Assembly: GCA_008369845.1 (NCBI GenBank)
Contig: MRSU01002690.1
Span: 57,305 to 77,304 of the forward strand
From: Trichomonas gallinae
Taxonomy: Eukaryota
Reading direction: 5' to 3'
DNA length: 20,000 nucleotides
A program made the translations under genes and the position numbers. Below, one piece after another: positions 1-8,470 of this stretch. Under the pieces are notes generated by a model. The model had not been told where the DNA came from, ran no database searches, and was given only the letters and a program-made list of their open reading frames with translations. Numbering within the stretch: position 1 is the stretch's first letter; each line of letters starts with the position of its first letter.

Positions 1-3000
1 TCTCTCCGCCAAATATTCTACTGGAAGATAAGAATTGATCTTGTTGATTTCTTCTTTGAATAACTCTAAGTATCTTTCTCTGTTCTTTTCGAAAGAAATC
101 GTCTTGAATTTCTCTGTTATTTCTGCTGTCGTAACATTGAAACAGGAAGCAATGACTTCATATAATTTATTCTTTTCGTTGTCAATTCTTGTTGTAGTGA
201 ATAACTGAAACGCTGAATACATTAATCCCCATAAATCTTGAACTCCATCTTTCCTTAATCTAACTGCACCATCAATAATCAAAAATGCAGACTGTAGGAA
301 TGATGTCATATGAATATTGTTGACCAATAACTGTGGAATAGTAAGAACTAACGAATTTAACATTGCTGCGTATTTCTTTGGCTCTTTGAATGATAATGCG
401 AGCATTCTTATTTCGATGATCATTGGTGAATTTATGTCTGACAAAGCGATTGATCTGACTGTTGATCTGATCATTGACGGAATACCGTCGCTCAAATAAC
501 GAACATGGTGGCCTGTGAAGTAGAACCGAGCATTCGGATTGAGTTCAACAGTTTTAGAACTGATGATGATTTTGTTTGAATTTGCTCTGAGAAGTTGATA
601 CATTGTGTGAATGTTATCGAATAAATAGCATAAATGTCTGTGTTCCATTTTCTCCAAATGATTAAACAAACACCAGCTGCCTGTTATGCATGTTCCAATC
701 AATATTCTGCTCAAGAAGTGTTCAGAGTTGTTTGGATATGGATACCAGTTATAAATAAATCTGCCGAAATCAGCTGCGAGCTGGAAAATAGTAGAAGCCT
801 TTCCAAGCATTGTAGAACCGAGCAAAATCATTGGATCAATTTCTCTGTTTCCTCTTGCAAGACTTTGGTAAGCAAACTCAATGCCTGTAGTATGAACAAC
901 GAAAGGAACTTGTCCCCAGAACTCATATCCAAGCTCCCATGATGTCTTCGAAATGCAAGCATAAATTGAGCCTGTTTCCTTCTTAAAGTGTAGCATTGTT
1001 TCATAGTCAATTGCGGGATTGAGGCCTTTGCGCTTTTGTTCTTGTAGTATTAAATTGGAATATCTATCTCTATAAGCAAGCAAAATTGCGAGAATTCCTG
1101 CTAATTCTGGTTTGACGCCAATTACATCTGTGATTTTTTGTATGTAATCGTTAATTAATTCTGGGAATGGCATCTCACCTTTGATTGTCTGTTTGAGCAG
1201 CTGGTTCCTCAAACTTGTCGTCAAAATAACATTCAAAGCAATTGCCAATATATTTGGCGCGAACATTGATATCCACTTGTCAAACATTACATTTTCGATC
1301 TTCTCGATTGCCTTCAATGACATTTCCTTGACTGTTTCTTGTGTTCTCTCAATCAGATCCGCAATCCACTGCTCAGGAACCGGTGTAATATCTACAGGCT
1401 TGTTAAGCGGTAATGTATATCCATGATTGCCAACAATACTGTAAACTTTTGACTGGAAAATTGGAACTTGGTTGCCCATCTCATCGTGGCAGTCGAGCGT
1501 TTTAACGAACATCAAAATCTTAGAGATTGTGCATGCAATGTCTTCGATTGATGTTGAGGAAATGAGTTTGAGAACATCATCGTTAGACAAGAAGAACAAA
1601 CGAGGCATTGCGTTTCTCTTTGTGTCCAACAATTTTCCGAGCGAAGCAATGATTGATTCCATTGTTTGGTTGTTTTCATTCAAAGCATCAAGTAATGATG
1701 GGAATGAACAAACAGAGAAAAGTCTTGTGTCTTTGATTGTGTGCCTAGCAATTGTGCTCCATTTCCTCTGAACACCAGAGAATTTGTTCATTTGTTGTGG
1801 TAAAAGTGATCTGGTTATATCTTGTGAGAAAATTGCGGATAAAATAATCCAGTTAGATTGGAATAATTGCCATGCTTCTATGATTTGATTGATGTTCTCA
1901 AGTGTTGAAGCGAGATTTGTGACTGTATCTCTGATGCCTTGTATGTATGGCCTCTGGAGCATCGAGCTGATATTAATCAATGCATCGTTGATTTCTTGTA
2001 ACAATTGATCAGTATTTCCAAGCAAAAGATTGTCTTCGTTGAGATTATTGCCTGGAACTTCAGCGATTGGCATCTGTACTTTGTTCCAGTAGTTAGTAAT
2101 GGCGTAGAATTCTGTTTCAAGTTTGTATTCACCGAGTGACATATTTGTGATTTGCTCGATTTTTTCTTTGTTCTGCAAAATATTCATCTTTATCAATTCG
2201 TCGACTGTCATCTTTGGATTGTAAGATGCCTGTTGATTGCAAGTCTCGAACAAGTTGTTCCAATGTCTGGCCTGCATCCTGCTGTTAGACAATTTCTCAA
2301 GTTCTTCGATATACGGAGAGATTTCATTTACTTTTGACGCGAGTTCGCCTAATATTGGATAATTATTTGATGCTGGAAGAGCTTGTAAACGCTTTAATTG
2401 CGTGTCAATTTCGACGACAGAATTTTTGAATACATCCATTTCTATTGAGATAAAGGCCTTCTTTGTCATCTGCTCCGAAATTTTCTGCCACTGATCAATC
2501 GATGAATATAATGTTAAAGCGAATTCATTGATATTTATTACGTTGTTGTAAAACGCGAATTTGTTAATTTCAACATCAATAATTTCTTGATATTTAATTG
2601 CTTGTTTAACCTGTGATTCGAGATCTCTCATCTTTCTGAGTCTTTTCTCACTTCTTGGAATTTCTTTCTCAATGTCGACAAGTGTTAATGTTGGAGGGAT
2701 TGCTGAAACTTTTTCATAATTCTTATTGAGTTTGGCTTCGAGTTGTGATATGTTATCTTTAAGTTGGTGAATGAAATAGTTGACAACGGAGCTCTTGATT
2801 GATTGAGCAACAATGAAATCGCTCTGGAACACTGAATATTTCTGATGAAGTGGATTTCTTTTATGCTGTAGTTGGAATTTTTCGAATAATGTATATGTTT
2901 CATCGACGAATTTAATTTCTGCTTCTATTGCTGGCTTTACGTTTTCTGCACGCTTAAATGTCTCACAGAATGATACGAAACCATCCAATGTTCCAGGCTC

Positions 3001-4992
3001 CATTTTGAGGATTTTGCCGTAATTTGTTAAAGCGCCATCAACTTGTTGAATTTTCATCGAAGAAAGTTTATCGAGAAGATTTTGCAAATCCAAAAATGTT
3101 TTCTTAGGAATTGGCTTCAATATTTGTCTTAAACCCTTGAGATCTATGTGAAGAACGCCTTTGACGATACCTTGTCTGAGGTTGTTGACTTCATGGTCAT
3201 CTTCTATCAACTGCTGCATTTCTTCTTTCACTTTTTCGAAATCGACAACGGGTTGCTCATCGCTGTTGACTAAAAATGTATCATCGCCAATATTATTCAG
3301 CGGATCTTGAATTTCGCCAACGAATTTTGTGCCTTTGCGAGTTATCAAATAATCTTTGACATCCCAACATTTGCCCATTTTGTAGATTGGATATAAATTC
3401 GAAAAATCTTGAGCAATGATAAATGCGTCATTATAAGAACTCCTGAGTGTTTTGATGATTCTCTCTTCTATCTCAGGCAGAATATTTTCGCATGATGTAA
3501 AGTTTGTTAATACTGGTCCATTAGCACATAATTGCTTAAAATCACATCCACTGTTTTCTATCAGAACTCTTAACTTTTCCATTTTAAGGAGTCTTGGTAA
3601 TTTGTTTAATGTATCAATGGAATTTGCCAATTGACCAACAATGCTCTTCTCAAGCTGCTGAAGATTGGGTGTGAAATCAACAGTGCCTTGATCTGTGAAT
3701 AAAACTTCGACCTGAAAAATACTTGAACCTTCTTGCGAAACGTTATGATCTGCCTGCTTCCAGCAATCAACGCAGATGTTCGCGAGTGTCTCTAATATCA
3801 TGTAATCGACTGTTCTAATGAATTGTCCTAACGAAGCAATTTGTTTATTTACGTCTTCTGTCTTTTTATATCTTAACAAAGCTTTTTGTTCTTCTAAATT
3901 TTCGAGGATTTGTATGTTAGGATGGCGGCGATTGAAGTTGAAATCTTGATCTGTCACCTGAACATGAAGTGGATCCGCGATTTTATCGAATAATTGCGCA
4001 ATTATTTCTGTGTTGTTTTGAATAAACTCTAAATAACTTGATTTCAATTTATCCGTATTTTCTCTTGATTGTTCTTCGAAATCTTCGAGTCTATATTTCT
4101 TGCCTACATGGAAGCATAGTAAATATTGCTTTAAAAGGCTGATTAATGCATTTTGTGAATCGTAAATTTTCAATTCTTGTCCAAAGAATAAAGGATTTCT
4201 GAATATTGTATTACTCATTGCATTAGCAAGTAAGCCTTTGAACCTCTGCTCTTTCAAAAACAGCACCCAGGCTCTGAAATTTTTCCAAAATAAATATTTC
4301 GAGAAGAATTTGAGTTTTCTTATGGCTTCGAATACAAATTTCTCTCTTGAGTATTGGTCGATTGTTAATGTTTCAGTTTCTCCGTTTGCATAAATATGAG
4401 TGACACCACTAGCACTCATTGTGTAATAATCAGTGCCAATCTCCGTAGATGGAACTTTCTTAAGATCGTACGGTGAGAAAAGTGGATCTTTTCGGTCGTA
4501 AGTGTAAATTAAATAAATAAAATGGTGACCACTTCCATCTTTTCTCTTTGAGAAGTATGCAATCGGGTCATCTTCGAATGCGAGTGTTTGTCTTTCAATT
4601 TCTTCTTCTCGTTTTGAAATTTGTAATGCAGTGACTTCTTGAAGATCTCCGAGCGGTTTATTTCCAAAACGCGATGAAGATGATAGTTGTGTACTCTTTG
4701 GTGGAATGATTGGTGATTTAATTATAGGTCTTCCAGTTTTCTTAGCGTGATTTCTAAATGCGTAGAGCGGAGGATTTTGCTGTTTAAGAAATGTATCACT
4801 TGAGCCTTCTCCAGGTGCACAGATATCGTAAGAATGAACTGTGCCTTCTAGATTCGAAGGTGCAAATAAAACTCGATCGATTGCCTTTTGTCCGGGTATA
4901 CTATCGAATTTAGTAGTTTTTACTCTGACGTTAGATTGTGGTGAACGAGGTGGATTTGTACCAGAGACGCTCTTTTCGTCCCTGTTACTCAT
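1..4992 (-). CDS. Axonemal dynein heavy chain, DNAH6/DNAH14-like single-headed inner-arm type, divergent; partial (tail, linker, AAA1; continues past position 1)
   Basis: ATG at 4992-4990 (MSNRDEKSVSG...). The frame showed no stop in the portions read down to position 1 (1664 codons), which explains its absence from the ORF track. The N-terminal tail has PYDLRKVP...DYYTMSASGVTHI...KLKFFSKYLFWKNF (DNAH6-like). Linker motifs are MQARHWNNLF (~2260-2290) and KRNAMPRLFFLSNDDVLKLI (1561-1620; canonical KR..FPRFYFLSNDELLEIL). These are followed by LGYEFWG and an AAA1-like region with GSTMLGKA (796-819) and GSWCLFNH (658-681). Confidence 0.92.
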   Translation of the reverse strand, partial: MSNRDEKSVSGTNPPRSPQSNVRVKTTKFDSIPGQKAIDRVLFAPSNLEGTVHSYDICAPGEGSSDTFLKQQNPPLYAFRNHAKKTGRPIIKSPIIPPKSTQLSSSSRFGNKPLGDLQEVTALQISKREEEIERQTLAFEDDPIAYFSKRKDGSGHHFIYLIYTYDRKDPLFSPYDLKKVPSTEIGTDYYTMSASGVTHIYANGETETLTIDQYSREKFVFEAIRKLKFFSKYLFWKNFRAWVLFLKEQRFKGLLANAMSNTIFRNPLFFGQELKIYDSQNALISLLKQYLLCFHVGKKYRLEDFEEQSRENTDKLKSSYLEFIQNNTEIIAQLFDKIADPLHVQVTDQDFNFNRRHPNIQILENLEEQKALLRYKKTEDVNKQIASLGQFIRTVDYMILETLANICVDCWKQADHNVSQEGSSIFQVEVLFTDQGTVDFTPNLQQLEKSIVGQLANSIDTLNKLPRLLKMEKLRVLIENSGCDFKQLCANGPVLTNFTSCENILPEIEERIIKTLRSSYNDAFIIAQDFSNLYPIYKMGKCWDVKDYLITRKGTKFVGEIQDPLNNIGDDTFLVNSDEQPVVDFEKVKEEMQQLIEDDHEVNNLRQGIVKGVLHIDLKGLRQILKPIPKKTFLDLQNLLDKLSSMKIQQVDGALTNYGKILKMEPGTLDGFVSFCETFKRAENVKPAIEAEIKFVDETYTLFEKFQLQHKRNPLHQKYSVFQSDFIVAQSIKSSVVNYFIHQLKDNISQLEAKLNKNYEKVSAIPPTLTLVDIEKEIPRSEKRLRKMRDLESQVKQAIKYQEIIDVEINKFAFYNNVININEFALTLYSSIDQWQKISEQMTKKAFISIEMDVFKNSVVEIDTQLKRLQALPASNNYPILGELASKVNEISPYIEELEKLSNSRMQARHWNNLFETCNQQASYNPKMTVDELIKMNILQNKEKIEQITNMSLGEYKLETEFYAITNYWNKVQMPIAEVPGNNLNEDNLLLGNTDQLLQEINDALINISSMLQRPYIQGIRDTVTNLASTLENINQIIEAWQLFQSNWIILSAIFSQDITRSLLPQQMNKFSGVQRKWSTIARHTIKDTRLFSVCSFPSLLDALNENNQTMESIIASLGKLLDTKRNAMPRLFFLSNDDVLKLISSTSIEDIACTISKILMFVKTLDCHDEMGNQVPIFQSKVYSIVGNHGYTLPLNKPVDITPVPEQWIADLIERTQETVKEMSLKAIEKIENVMFDKWISMFAPNILAIALNVILTTSLRNQLLKQTIKGEMPFPELINDYIQKITDVIGVKPELAGILAILLAYRDRYSNLILQEQKRKGLNPAIDYETMLHFKKETGSIYACISKTSWELGYEFWGQVPFVVHTTGIEFAYQSLARGNREIDPMILLGSTMLGKASTIFQLAADFGRFIYNWYPYPNNSEHFLSRILIGTCITGSWCLFNHLEKMEHRHLCYLFDNIHTMYQLLRANSNKIIISSKTVELNPNARFYFTGHHVRYLSDGIPSMIRSTVRSIALSDINSPMIIEIRMLALSFKEPKKYAAMLNSLVLTIPQLLVNNIHMTSFLQSAFLIIDGAVRLRKDGVQDLWGLMYSAFQLFTTTRIDNEKNKLYEVIASCFNVTTAEITEKFKTISFEKNRERYLELFKEEINKINSYLPVEYLAER

Positions 4993-4998
4993 TCCTTG

Positions 4999-5017
4999 AA
5001 TGTTAACGAGCAAAAAA
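4999..5017 (-). promoter_or_regulatory. Putative core promoter/Inr-like element of the dynein gene
   Basis: Minus strand TTTTTTGCTCGTTAACATT lies 6 nt upstream of the ATG. ACATT fits the trichomonad Inr consensus HCAHW. A near-identical element lies upstream of the CCDC42-like gene (9433-9451). Confidence 0.5.
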
Positions 5018-5032
5018 GTGCCAAATTTTGAA

Positions 5033-5168
5033 AATTTGTCAATATAATTATTTTACGTGTCAAAATTCTACATAATTAGGGTCGCCCCTGCATTTTATGA
5101 TAATTTGTCAATAAATTATTTTACATGTCAGAAATTGATTGAATTAGGGTCGCCCCTGTTTTTATGAT
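5033..5168. repeat. Imperfect tandem duplication, 2 x ~68 bp (plus a decayed partial third unit to ~5197), in the divergent promoter
   Basis: Units 5033-5101 and 5102-5168 both read AATTTGTCAATA..ATTATTTTAC(G/A)TGTCA..AATTAGGGTCGCCCCTG..TTTTATGAT. The 17-mer AATTAGGGTCGCCCCTG is identical at 5074-5090 and 5142-5158. Confidence 0.9.
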
Positions 5169-5305
5169 ATTTTGGATGTAAATGTATTTACGTGGCAAAT
5201 ATTTTTAAAATCGTCATAATTTATATTCAATTTTTCGAAAACTGTCAATGTAAAGTTACTAATTTGACATAGTTTATTTAATCGTTGTCAAAAATAAGGG
5301 AAGTG

Positions 5306-7876
5306 ATGGCAACGCAGACACCACGTACGAGAACTCTTATTTTGGGCTGCGATTATCCAACATTTCACTTATATTGGAGATATTATTCGCAATGTGCTGA
5401 TAAAGAAATTGTTGGTTTCGTCCATACAACATTCGCACCGCCACCTATTTCGAAATTTAAAGGAATTTATAGACTTCCATTACCAGTATATAATCTTCGT
5501 AGTCTTGAGCGTATTATTCTTAAAAAACAAGTGCAAAAATGCGTTATTCAAGCACAAAATATAGATATGACCGAATTACAAGCAATTATTAATCGAATTC
5601 TTTCAACTGGAATATGTGGATTCGAGTTTCTTCCAAAGAAATCATTAACAATTCATTCTTTCAAACGAACAATTGTTATTTCATCGTTAGCAACAAAATT
5701 AGGTAAATCTCAACTTGCCAGATATTTTTGCTCGATTTTGGCAAAAGAATATAAGCGAGTTGCTGTTGTATATTCATTATCTTCGATAAATCCTTCGGAA
5801 AATACTTTAATAATTGAGGATTGTCCACATTACGAATTTGATGAGCAATCTACAATTCCAGAAAATGTTTTCAGCATTGATGATGAACATCAGATTAAAC
5901 AATATCAAAACAGCGGCGCTTACAAGATTTTTGCAACAAGTGATATCAGACAAGCAATTATCTGCGCAGAACAATGTGCTGATATCATAATTTTCGATGC
6001 ATATCAATGCGAAATTCCTTTCATCGAATCTGATTACACGTTCTGTGTTGTATCATCAGATTCTCTTATAAATCCCCACAAATTATCGCTTTGGCCTGGT
6101 TTGGTCAATGTTCACGAAGCCTCCAAAAAAGTTGTTTTGTATCGAGGTCAACAACAGCTTCCAGACAGCAGAATCAAAGAGATTGATGCTTTATTCAAGG
6201 AATCTAGGGTGTACTATGCAAGTTCTCAATACGATTTTGAAGGTGTTTCAACATCCACTATTTTCGGCCAAAAAGTCATGACAATCGACTCCCAAGAAGA
6301 TGCAGGCATATCTAATCAGCTCGCCTTCCATTATGGTGCCTCAGAGATTGTCACTCCATCAACAACAACAGAACAAGTATCAGTCAAAGGCAGAACAACA
6401 ACAGTCAAGCTTCCTAGAGCTGCTTCTCCTCTTGCAATTCCACATGGTCATTCTGAGCTCAATCTCACTTCATCTATCGATTCATTCGCGTCCAGAGGTT
6501 TTGACGATTCATCTGAATTCTTAAACTACGAGGCTGGTTCACTTCCATCAATAATAATTCCAGCGCAAAACGCAAGAATCGACATTATTCAGAACATGAC
6601 AGCTGAACCGAAAAGTGAAGAGATGCTTTTTAAGATAGATTATGCTGAAGAAAGTGAGGACGAAAACATCAGCTTGGAAGATCGCTCTCCTTCTCCTAAC
6701 TCGCAAGTTGTTGAGGAGAAGAATCAAGCATTGGAAAATCTTTCGAGAATCATCAACGAAACTAAAGATGTCGATGTCATCATTTCATCGCTTAACACTC
6801 CAATTCCTGGCTTAGACCCAACAAAACTCGTCATCTACGCAACACCAGAAATTCAAGACAACGAAGGCAAACTCTATAAATGGATTGTTGACTTTGCAAA
6901 TCCGAAAGTTCCTGCCCTACAAAAACATTTCGAGGCGCAAGTCGACATCATCATGAGTTTGGCTAAAGCATCAGATAAAGAACTTAGAGTCCAAAACAAC
7001 GATTCGTCAAACAGAGAAAGCTTCTGCAGAATTTTCCTTTCGTCGCATTTGCCGCCGGGATTCAGAGTCACAACAGGCGAAATCATCGACAGCAGCTCTA
7101 ATCTAACTGGACAGCTCGATGTTGTTGTTGTCAATGATCTATGTCCTTCACTGACAATTGACACATCAGGGCATGTCATTGCGCCAATTCCAGCCGACTC
7201 TGTTCTCGCTGTTATTGAAGTCAAAACAACACTGACACATGATGCATTGAACAAAGCCTTGTCACAGATGCGTCCAATCAAAGCATTGATGCCTTCACAT
7301 ACTACGCTTTTGACGCCAGACGGCGGAATCATCGATGACCCACTCGGCGGAAAAGTCATTGCTGGAATCTTTTCATTCAACATCACAGATGAAATCGAAG
7401 ACCAAGTCCCTGAGCTGCTTGAAAAGTATCCGAATGTCGTAGATTTCATTGTGCTTCCAGATGCATTTGCTTTTATCAACGAGAAAACTCTTAAAGTCTG
7501 TGGCATGGAAGTTGGCAGCCATGAATTGATCCATGGATATTGCAAATTCACAGCGAAAGGAATGGGTTTGGCTATGATTTATGGAATTTTGAATTCCATT
7601 GCTGCCATCAGAAGATTCAACGGAATGAACTGCGTTAGATACATATCAGGATCATGGGGCAATGAAAGAGATAAGATCAGCAAAATTATTTCTCAAGTCT
7701 CAACGAGTATCAACCTCCTAGACAAATACTTCGCGACAGCTACTACAGAGAAGAAGAACGAGTACTTTAGGAAGAAAGATGAGTTCAGCAAAATTGTCAC
7801 TGACTCACTATCTAACTTAGGAAAGAAGAATGCGACAATTAAACCTCCTTCAGTCCCGAAGACCTCTCCTATATAA
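5306..7876 (+). CDS. Fusion protein: degenerate COG2403-type (cyclic 2,3-diphosphoglycerate synthetase/ArcE-like) P-loop module + C-terminal NucC/DUF6602-like PD-(D/E)xK endonuclease
   Basis: First ATG at 5306 (856 aa; the ORF track starts at a TTG at 5285). The N-part is collinear with recalled COG2403 proteins: TLILGCDYPTFH, SLATKLGKSQLARY, AEQCADIIIFD, WPGLVNV, YGASEIVTP, LENLSRIINETKDVDVII. The C-part (6917-~7640) reads NRESFCRIFLSSHLPPGFRVTTGEIIDSSSNLTGQLDVVV...PIPADSVLAVIEVK, matching the NucC pattern E..W..ML..YLP.RY....FVVDS.G.FSDQIDVVV...IVPAESVYAVFEAK. Confidence 0.85.
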   Translation: MATQTPRTRTLILGCDYPTFHLYWRYYSQCADKEIVGFVHTTFAPPPISKFKGIYRLPLPVYNLRSLERIILKKQVQKCVIQAQNIDMTELQAIINRILSTGICGFEFLPKKSLTIHSFKRTIVISSLATKLGKSQLARYFCSILAKEYKRVAVVYSLSSINPSENTLIIEDCPHYEFDEQSTIPENVFSIDDEHQIKQYQNSGAYKIFATSDIRQAIICAEQCADIIIFDAYQCEIPFIESDYTFCVVSSDSLINPHKLSLWPGLVNVHEASKKVVLYRGQQQLPDSRIKEIDALFKESRVYYASSQYDFEGVSTSTIFGQKVMTIDSQEDAGISNQLAFHYGASEIVTPSTTTEQVSVKGRTTTVKLPRAASPLAIPHGHSELNLTSSIDSFASRGFDDSSEFLNYEAGSLPSIIIPAQNARIDIIQNMTAEPKSEEMLFKIDYAEESEDENISLEDRSPSPNSQVVEEKNQALENLSRIINETKDVDVIISSLNTPIPGLDPTKLVIYATPEIQDNEGKLYKWIVDFANPKVPALQKHFEAQVDIIMSLAKASDKELRVQNNDSSNRESFCRIFLSSHLPPGFRVTTGEIIDSSSNLTGQLDVVVVNDLCPSLTIDTSGHVIAPIPADSVLAVIEVKTTLTHDALNKALSQMRPIKALMPSHTTLLTPDGGIIDDPLGGKVIAGIFSFNITDEIEDQVPELLEKYPNVVDFIVLPDAFAFINEKTLKVCGMEVGSHELIHGYCKFTAKGMGLAMIYGILNSIAAIRRFNGMNCVRYISGSWGNERDKISKIISQVSTSINLLDKYFATATTEKKNEYFRKKDEFSKIVTDSLSNLGKKNATIKPPSVPKTSPI

Positions 7877-8470
7877 TAAATGTTTGTTTAAATCTATTAT
7901 TTGAGCTTTTTAATACTTATAAACTATGTAAATAATGCTTCAAATAATAGATTGCATCTTTCAAGTTGTTTTTGCATATTTTGTATACTCATGAATTCAT
8001 CAAATATCCTTCTTTGGGCTCCTGGCATAAATGGAAAAAGCGAAAGATATATTAATAAAACAACATTGATAAGGCCTTCAAAATATGGTCATCATGAATG
8101 TTGCAAATAATTATTCTGTTCCTTGAACAGATGTCAAGACAAAATGCTTTATAGCAGGAATACACGCATATGATGAAATACTTCAGCTATTACTTGAAAT
8201 CAAAACAATATTGACACATGATATTTTATTATCGCACAGAATATTTTTTTTTACATATTAAGAAATGCAGTAATAACGAATTCATTCATGCAGATACATA
8301 TAAATAAATTCAGGAAGCATCATATCGAGAATTAGAGAAAATATTAAAATTGACAAAGCCCTCAGAATTCTATAGTTATTTATAATAATATGATAAATAG
8401 AAGGAGGATGAATGACAAACTTAACAGATTTAGTAATAATAATAAATATAAAAAGACAAATTAGGAAAAA

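What the first reader, a model, noticed from the sequence alone, without database searches (positions are those of the whole stretch)
5306..7876. Possible one-component sensor-effector system: cDPG-synthetase/ArcE-like P-loop module fused to the NucC-like nuclease
Seen: the first ~530 aa align block by block with my recollection of the prokaryotic COG2403 'predicted GTPase' family, which is related to cyclic 2,3-diphosphoglycerate synthetase and, as I recall, to the archaeal arginine synthetase ArcE. The pairs are TLILGCDYPTFH vs VIIMGAAGRDFH, SLATKLGKSQLAR (5684-) vs AVRTGSGKSQTSR, FSIDDEHQIKQY vs CTIEEREEYEPH, AEQCADIIIFDAYQCEIPF vs AEKEADVILWDGGNNDFPF, WPGLVNV vs HPGETNL, and YGASEIVTP vs YGAKEIVDP. 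GKS is kept, but the family signatures GRDFH, RHPMPYG, EEREEYE, DGGNND, NK.D and EDGPT are eroded, while the nuclease site is intact. No CD-NTase or Cas10 lies in the window. Inference: the enzyme module was repurposed as a ligand sensor (nucleotide, arginine/citrulline or a cyclic metabolite) or an oligomerisation switch gating the DNase. That would make a self-contained CBASS-like device that I do not know to have been described. Arginine catabolism is a major energy route in trichomonads, so a metabolic trigger is plausible.
Basis: partly seen in the sequence, partly recalled or inferred. Interest (0 to 1): 0.88.

Follow-up and report, generated by a model that had tools for sequence, protein, structure and literature searches.

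The report
Dead arginine synthetase fused to nuclease
A trichomonad protist gene, with relatives in Trichomonas vaginalis, joins a degenerate copy of the metabolic enzyme arginine synthetase to a bacterial anti-phage-type nuclease domain, and the dead enzyme likely acts as a built-in switch for DNA cutting.

Summary
Confirmed. 5306-7876 is one intron-free 856-aa ORF of a trichomonad (78% identical to T. vaginalis TVAG_459780). Residues 5-535 are a full-length relative of COG2403/ArcE arginine synthetase (profile 71 bits, best shuffle 2.3; top fold match cDPG synthetase). Residues 543-771 have the NucC fold (DUF6602). All 14 full-length homologues compared carry both parts. Catalytic D605/E638/K640 are kept in 14 of 14. 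Seven ArcE signature motifs are kept in 0 of 14, while Walker A GK[S/T] survives in 13 of 14. The NucC cA3-binding residues are absent, as in the nearest standalone bacterial DUF6602 proteins. No such fusion was seen among 55 long ArcE proteins or 44 ArcE-bearing genomes. The best ArcE match is an intact metamonad (Paratrimastix) enzyme, so the module may be inherited rather than bacterial. Best reading: a pseudoenzyme-gated nuclease in which the dead ArcE module, attached to the helix NucC uses to pair trimers, replaces cA3 as the switch, probably through a nucleotide rather than arginine. Gating, ligand and cellular role are untested, and one homologue has lost the P-loop. Not a CBASS member; not found in my literature searches.

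The parts
5306..7876 (+). Single 856-aa ORF: degenerate ArcE/COG2403 module fused to a DUF6602 (NucC-fold) nuclease
   Evidence: 13 full-length database relatives, all with PF20247; a contig at about 95% identity covers 5927-7861 across the junction
5318..5650 (+). N-terminal alpha/beta subdomain (residues about 5-115), matching the cDPGS N-terminal domain that forms that enzyme's dimer; GRDFH motif changed to YPTFH
   Evidence: VIA alignment to 8ORU spans residues 5-541; dimer role from PMC10690619 passages; alignment
5651..6430 (+). LpxK-like P-loop core (residues about 116-375). Walker A G133-K134-S135 at 5702-5710, Walker-B-position D231, D213 and PGxxN are kept; the ArcE-specific motifs are lost
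   Evidence: VIA Z 20.0 to LpxK 4EHX, rmsd 3.5, 284 aligned; column counts
6431..6700 (+). Low-complexity, predicted disordered insertion (residues about 376-465), present only here and in TVAG_459780
   Evidence: alignment A1; pLDDT under 50 for residues 378-462
6701..6910 (+). C-terminal part of the ArcE module (residues about 466-535)
   Evidence: aligns to the ArcE C-terminal region
6911..7645 (+). NucC-fold PD-(D/E)XK nuclease domain (residues 536-780). Alpha0-equivalent helix 539-559; catalytic D605 (QLDVVV, 7112-7129) and E638/K640 (IEVKT, 7214-7228); cA3-pocket positions are G585, C613, D672
   Evidence: NucC residues from bioRxiv 10.1101/694703 passages
7646..7873 (+). C-terminal helical hairpin tail (helices 787-809 and 814-841), poorly conserved (30% mean identity)

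Best explanation
This is a conserved single-chain fusion of a degenerate arginine-synthetase (ArcE) module and a NucC-fold nuclease domain with intact catalytic residues, and the module likely gates DNA cutting by controlling how predicted nuclease trimers pair, probably in response to a bound nucleotide. Shown: one ORF; the homology of both halves; loss of the ArcE signature motifs; retention of Walker A and of D-EVK; and absence of the cA3-binding residues. Predicted: self-association of the nuclease domain. Inferred: (1) it cuts double-stranded DNA as NucC does; (2) NucC needs two trimers paired through their alpha0 helices, and the ArcE module is joined directly to that helix, so three module dimers (cDPGS is a dimer) could bridge two trimers into the active hexamer; (3) ATP/ADP binding at the retained P-loop, which closes the domain in cDPGS, would tune this pairing in place of cA3; (4) with no signal peptide or membrane segment it would act inside the cell, on foreign DNA or in regulated self-destruction.
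For: All 14 full-length homologues have both parts. D605, E638 and K640 are 14/14, and the nuclease domain is the most conserved region, 69% mean identity vs 43% for the P-loop core. The module is not decaying: it keeps its full fold, has its own family-invariant residues, and 35 of 38 listed differences to a related contig over codons 224-442 are synonymous (38 of 91 differences, the others not listed or from a paralogue). G133/K134 are 13/14, S/T135 14/14, D213 and D231 14/14. K131, aligned with the phosphate-binding R146 of cDPGS, is basic in 11/14. NucC R53/Y81/H136 align to G585/C613/D672, so cA3 cannot act as in NucC. Three copies of residues 536-842 scored 0.41, best control 0.00. That mark was reached by 21 of 30 solved pairs and 0 of 23 single chains, and on eukaryotes by 17 of 29 pairs; runs agree in at least 64% of contacts; pLDDT at least 71. 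The pass may be from memory of solved NucC trimers. The confident interface includes 536-542, where the module joins. The cDPGS dimer and its closure on ADP are from PMC10690619. No hydrophobic leader.
Against: Homologue L003 lacks the Walker A lysine and the last third of the module, yet keeps an intact nuclease, so nucleotide binding is dispensable in at least one lineage. The NK.D positions, near the adenine-contacting E305 of cDPGS, are not kept. Standalone bacterial DUF6602 proteins also lack the R53/Y81 pair (10 of 11) and have no ArcE module, so the pocket's absence need not be an adaptation and the domain may need no gate. The predicted complex is three copies against a two-copy calibration, and only two of the three pairwise interfaces are confidently named. 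There is no biochemical or expression datum on this protein.
Confidence: 0.45

Rival explanations
1. The ArcE module is a ligand-free scaffold: it dimerises, stabilises or localises a nuclease that is constitutively active or controlled by other means, and the P-loop is a structural leftover.
For: L003 lost the P-loop lysine. The N-terminal subdomain that dimerises cDPGS is more conserved (51%) than the P-loop core (43%). Only 18 of 113 ArcE near-invariant columns are kept, many of them Gly, Pro or hydrophobic.
Against: GK[S/T] plus two aspartates persist in 13-14 of 14 sequences whose P-loop cores share as little as 24% identity. An ungated non-specific nuclease inside a cell would be dangerous (inference).
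Confidence: 0.25
2. The module is still an enzyme but with a new substrate (an ATPase or a small-molecule or nucleic-acid kinase of the LpxK/cDPGS class), working alongside or upstream of the nuclease.
For: Walker A, the Walker-B-position Asp and a basic P-loop residue are kept, and the family has new invariant residues such as Y23, R25, C79, R215, E222, Q223 and W263. cDPGS and ArcE themselves share the fold with few shared motifs, so motif turnover can mean a new reaction, not death.
Against: The P-loop core is the least conserved folded part except the tail and module end. The stem branch is very long, 5.4 substitutions per column. L003 lost the lysine.
Confidence: 0.15
3. The module senses arginine or citrulline and links the nuclease to the arginine-catabolism state of the cell.
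For: It descends from ArcE: the nearest families sit beside or fused with carbamate kinase, ornithine transcarbamoylase and ornithine aminotransferase, and ArcE uses Arg/citrulline with ADP/ATP (PMC11032458).
Against: Seven ArcE motifs present in 20-32 of 32 ArcE sequences are in 0 of 14 fusions, including the acidic ones. That these motifs bind the amino acid is my inference; no ArcE structure was found in the PDB search.
Confidence: 0.08
4. The fusion is an assembly or annotation artefact, or two separate genes.
For: No run on record as RNA was listed as a holder (told under Tried and rejected); nothing positive supports this reading.
Against: Continuous ORF; 13 database relatives of 741-856 aa with both parts, two of them named T. 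vaginalis genes; an independent metagenome contig with the fused ORF; a sequencing-run contig across the junction.
Confidence: 0.01

Closest known systems
NucC (CBASS / type III CRISPR effector; bioRxiv 10.1101/694703, passages read)
   Same: Restriction-endonuclease fold (Z 18.9), catalytic D-x-E-x-K residues, alpha0 helix, predicted self-association.
   Different: cA3-binding R53, Y81 and H136 are replaced; no CD-NTase or Cas10 among scanned neighbours; fused to a 440-aa P-loop module; eukaryotic; 15-20% identity.
Standalone DUF6602 nucleases, including the anti-phage system Damona (bioRxiv 10.1101/2024.07.02.601686, passages read)
   Same: Pfam DUF6602 and PADLOC PD_DExK hits; share the RE...LP...TG...D...EVK pattern and lack the cA3 pocket; the best-scoring one (L042) sits between an ABC-type ATPase gene and another nuclease-like gene.
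   Different: About 260-350 aa, with no ArcE module in the protein or its locus (0 of 12 loci). I did not compare with the Damona sequence itself.
Arginine synthetase ArcE / COG2403 'predicted GTPase' (PMC11032458; first part and passages read)
   Same: Collinear full-length homology; Walker A and several Asp/Gly residues kept. The best match is an intact ArcE-like sequence from Paratrimastix pyriformis (119 bits vs 100 for the next).
   Different: Family motifs lost in 14 of 14. Known long forms are fused to arginine-pathway enzymes and others, none of 55 to a nuclease. The label COG2403 is recalled; no call printed it.
Cyclic 2,3-diphosphoglycerate synthetase (8ORK/8ORU) and LpxK (PMC10690619, passages read)
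   Same: Two-domain architecture and P-loop kinase fold (Foldseek E 3.7e-14; VIA Z 19.5 and 20.0).
   Different: 12-15% identity; more distant than ArcE; catalytic equivalence not shown.
One-chain NTPase-nuclease or nucleotide-gated defence nucleases such as Avs/STAND and Gabija GajA (recalled, not tested)
   Same: Proposed logic: a nucleotide-binding module controls a nuclease.
   Different: Those use STAND or ABC ATPases; here the module comes from an amino-acid metabolism enzyme of the LpxK class.

Membership tests
COG2403/ArcE family (descent) | Full-length sequence and fold homology | tested here: met
Arginine synthetase ArcE (active enzyme) | Family-invariant motifs GRDFH, RTGxGKS, RHPMPY, EEREEYE, DGGNN, EDGPT, PAMGY | tested here: not met
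   0 of 14 fusions vs 20-32 of 32 ArcE; 18 of 113 near-invariant columns kept
Arginine synthetase ArcE (active enzyme) | Arg + ADP + Pi <-> citrulline + ATP + NH3 activity | not testable with these tools
   needs an enzyme assay
P-loop NTP-binding module | Walker A GK[S/T] and Walker-B-position Asp | tested here: met
   GK[S/T] 13 of 14, D231 14 of 14; binding itself untested
DUF6602 (PF20247) | Score above the Pfam gathering cut-off | tested here: met
   82.5 bits vs cut-off 27
NucC | Fold and IDx30EAK-type active site | tested here: met
   Z 18.9; D605, E638, K640 14/14
NucC | cA3 pocket and latch (R53, Y81, H136; T226 and Y141 not mapped) | tested here: not met
   G585 14/14, C/T/S/A613, D/G/E672
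NucC | Homotrimer | tested here: inconclusive
   Model supports self-binding, 0.41 vs control 0.00, possibly from memory of solved NucC
CBASS / type III CRISPR system | Linked CD-NTase or Cas10 producing a cyclic oligonucleotide | tested here: inconclusive
   None among scanned window genes or, by my reading of the ORFs, in L003; no whole genome is held
Damona | Sequence match to the Damona protein and anti-phage activity | not tested
   only the paper's domain description was read

The most novel reading that the evidence does not exclude
Parabasalid protists built a one-chain immune or cell-death nuclease by fusing their ancestral, now dead, arginine synthetase to a bacterial defence nuclease, so that ATP/ADP-driven closure of the pseudoenzyme dimer assembles a NucC-type hexamer without any second messenger. 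It would be a eukaryotic energy-state-gated DNase of anti-phage origin, present in two copies in T. vaginalis.
Probability: 0.25. Interest if true: 0.92.

Novelty: new variant of a known kind. Interest (0 to 1): 0.76.

Why it matters
A NucC-fold nuclease with perfectly kept catalytic residues in a eukaryotic lineage that includes human and bird parasites did not turn up in my literature searches. It is a concrete case of a bacterial defence-type effector domesticated by a protist and wired to a new control module recruited from metabolism. It gives a directly testable handle on how trichomonads destroy foreign or own DNA, and on how a NucC-type nuclease can be switched without cyclic oligonucleotides. 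T. vaginalis has two copies, so knock-outs and recombinant assays are feasible.

Tried and rejected
No whole genome is held for the window, so an intact ArcE, a CD-NTase and the full paralogue set of this organism could not be searched. The exhaustive profile search of representatives never ran (queue full on nine tries), and the wide structural search did not run. The cluster look-up could not be made. Distant or prokaryotic fused forms therefore remain possible: the searches that ran are word-seeded and limited by length. Expression: no RNA holder listed. Run X1 is only guessed to be RNA, and the control over silent stretches could not be obtained, so transcription is not shown; X2 and X3 laid nothing. 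No relatives in viral contigs, none for the nuclease domain in phage records, and no convincing viral fold match. Pfam and NCBIfam miss the N-terminal module, and sequence search of the PDB finds only NucC. A prokaryotic ArcE + DUF6602 pairing was looked for and not found in those searched. In 201 genomes of one phylum, 44 had ArcE and 9 had DUF6602; 2 had both, about the 2.0 expected by chance, on different contigs. No nuclease hit lay in the ArcE loci (about 1.5 kb flanks) and no ArcE hit in 12 DUF6602 loci. Origin: the 83-row quick tree left the attachment open. The 30-row careful tree joined the fusions to Paratrimastix ArcE in 898 of 1000 bootstrap trees but with SH-aLRT 46, unstarred, a very long stem and skewed composition; no AU test was run, so inheritance is suggested only. 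The ArcE paper's supplement (1 text file) had no hit for eukaryote names; its figures S10-S11, which list the eukaryotic homologues, are pictures I could not see. bioRxiv supplements were closed. Earlier findings: none.
Full report
Observation. The interval is one open frame of 856 aa. Its neighbours are ordinary eukaryotic genes: protein kinases, meckelin, DUF4200 and an EEP phosphatase, plus a long divergent ORF that I read as a dynein heavy chain (not scanned). No whole genome is held. A protein search gave 13 relatives among 7990 scored candidates, 741-856 aa, all with PF20247. Two are named T. vaginalis genes, TVAG_459780 (78%) and TVAG_477770. The others are unnamed; I infer they are parabasalid from their closeness to these. 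A metagenome scan added L003, a 656-aa fused ORF among eukaryote-like genes, and a partial L004. Residue counts use 14 sequences: the window protein, P0003-P0014 and L003. P0002 (99% identical) and L004 (partial) were left out.

N-terminal module. Pfam and NCBIfam do not see it, but four other lines do. The ESM Atlas gave 'GTPase' clusters at 0.93-0.94 for the paralogue's N-terminus. tblastn hit an archaeal gene beside carbamate kinase, and a pattern scan found a bacterial one beside carbamate kinase. The AlphaFold model (mean pLDDT 70.2) matched cDPG synthetase first in Foldseek (E 3.7e-14); in VIA it matched cDPGS and LpxK at Z 19.5 and 20.0, a tie. An ArcE profile from 32 sequences scored the module at 71.0 bits, against 2.3 for the best of 500 shuffles. 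These 32 are mostly from one bacterial phylum, which inflates apparent invariance. Long members of this family are often fused to carbamate kinase, ornithine transcarbamoylase or ornithine aminotransferase. That fits arginine synthetase ArcE as described in PMC11032458 (abstract, part 1 of 6 and passages read), which notes homologues in a few eukaryotes. Of 113 near-invariant ArcE columns, 29 are kept in this protein and 18 in at least 12 of 14 fusions. Seven signature motifs occur in 0 of 14 fusions, while GK[S/T] occurs in 13 of 14; D213 and D231 are 14/14. Mapping through the ArcE-cDPGS alignment and PMC10690619 (passages), the Walker A lysine and threonine are kept, K131 corresponds to phosphate-binding R146, and the region of adenine-contacting E305 is changed. 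The Mg ligand D208 could not be mapped.

Nuclease. DUF6602 scores 82.5 bits, and PADLOC gives PD_DExK E 8.5e-24 and NucC E 6.3e-11. The fold matches NucC at Z 18.9 over residues 543-771. D605, E638 and K640 are invariant, and this domain is the most conserved part: 69% mean identity, against 51% for the N-subdomain, 43% for the P-loop core and 30% for the tail. NucC's cA3 residues R53, Y81 and H136 (bioRxiv 10.1101/694703, passages) align to G585, C613 and D672. Among 11 bacterial DUF6602 proteins hit, the best (57 bits) lacks these residues, while the one true NucC-like sequence scores 38 bits. Three plasmid examples lie outside annotated CBASS operons. Damona is a described anti-phage system with DUF6602 (bioRxiv 10.1101/2024.07.02.601686, passages). 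So the domain is NucC-fold, but probably from the cA3-independent standalone branch.

Selection and expression. A contig from run X1 (RNA is only a guess) covers 5927-7861 with 93 differences and crosses the junction. Of the 38 listed differences in codons 224-442, 35 are synonymous. The module is therefore under purifying selection. Transcription is not shown.

Origin. None of 55 long ArcE-containing proteins carries the nuclease. In 201 genomes of one phylum, ArcE (44) and DUF6602 (9) co-occur in 2, as chance predicts, on separate contigs. The fusion profile scores an intact ArcE-like sequence of the metamonad Paratrimastix highest, 119 bits against 100 for the next. A 30-row tree makes them sisters in 898 of 1000 bootstrap trees, but without SH-aLRT support (46) and on a 5.4-substitution stem; the 83-row quick tree left it open. 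The simplest reading, inferred, is that a parabasalid ancestor fused its own ArcE to a horizontally acquired DUF6602 nuclease.

Mechanism. NucC cuts when two trimers pair through alpha0 helices. Here the module is joined to the alpha0-equivalent helix (539-559). Three copies of residues 536-842 scored 0.41 against a best control of 0.00. The mark was reached by 21 of 30 solved pairs and 0 of 23 single chains; runs agree in at least 64% of contacts, with pLDDT at least 71. The pass may reflect memory of NucC, and the job is unlike the two-copy calibration. cDPGS dimerises through its N-terminal domain and closes on ADP. Three such dimers could bridge two trimers, and nucleotide state could tune the pairing. 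This is inference; the module's dimer was not modelled. Against it, L003 has lost the P-loop lysine and part of the module, and standalone DUF6602 proteins have no such module. I give 0.45 to a nucleotide-gated nuclease, 0.25 to a ligand-free scaffold, 0.15 to a new enzyme activity, 0.08 to arginine sensing and 0.01 to an artefact. The cellular role (defence against foreign DNA, regulated death or salvage of DNA) is open. There is no signal peptide or membrane segment by hydropathy.

Literature. Whole-word NucC + Trichomonas gave 0 papers; the word-start version listed 20 of 104 papers, none on this by title or abstract start. The two TVAG ids gave none and DUF6602 gave one paper. NucC with eukaryote, HGT, CBASS and protist gave 0, and arginine synthetase + Paratrimastix gave 0. 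each listed one paper unrelated by title and abstract start (not opened). PMC13260591 (passages) does not mention eukaryotes. The library lacks most subscription papers, and the ArcE paper's supplementary figures could not be read.

Verdict. This is a real, lineage-conserved and apparently undescribed domain architecture. It is not an ArcE enzyme or a CBASS member by the tested features, and it plausibly works like a self-gated NucC. New variant of a known kind; interest 0.76.

Noticed in passing
window 5026-5203: About 2.5 tandem copies of a 69-bp unit (77% identity, each with TTAGGGTCGCCCCTG) fill the short intergenic stretch between this gene and the divergent upstream gene; possibly a shared promoter element or small mobile repeat.
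   Followed up: partly
window 8186-8222: A 37-bp stretch 86% identical to 7208-7243, the nuclease's IEVKT active-site codons, lies 300 bp downstream of the stop (E 1.9e-4); it looks like the relic of a partial duplication.
   Followed up: partly
window 1-5013 (-): An open frame of at least 1671 aa running off the left end; I read it as a dynein heavy chain, not scanned.
   Followed up: no
P0023 (residues about 556-1007): Paratrimastix pyriformis encodes an ArcE-like sequence with all signature motifs intact, annotated as a cobalamin synthesis protein and joined to a coiled-coil region that may be a separate gene; a candidate eukaryotic arginine synthetase.
   Followed up: partly
L003:4995-6965: A 656-aa homologue with the P-loop lysine lost and the last third of the ArcE module deleted, but an intact nuclease site; a natural test case for the gating model.
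   Followed up: partly
L042:1-3120: The closest bacterial DUF6602 lies between an ABC/SMC-like ATPase gene and a gene with a nuclease-like N-terminus (my reading); possibly a defence operon.
   Followed up: no
run X1, record 2: A second, diverged contig matches parts of the nuclease domain, suggesting a paralogue in that organism as in T. vaginalis.
   Followed up: no
P0017-P0071: Many ArcE proteins are fused to carbamate kinase, ornithine transcarbamoylase or ornithine aminotransferase; some other long forms look like read-through or frameshift artefacts.
   Followed up: no
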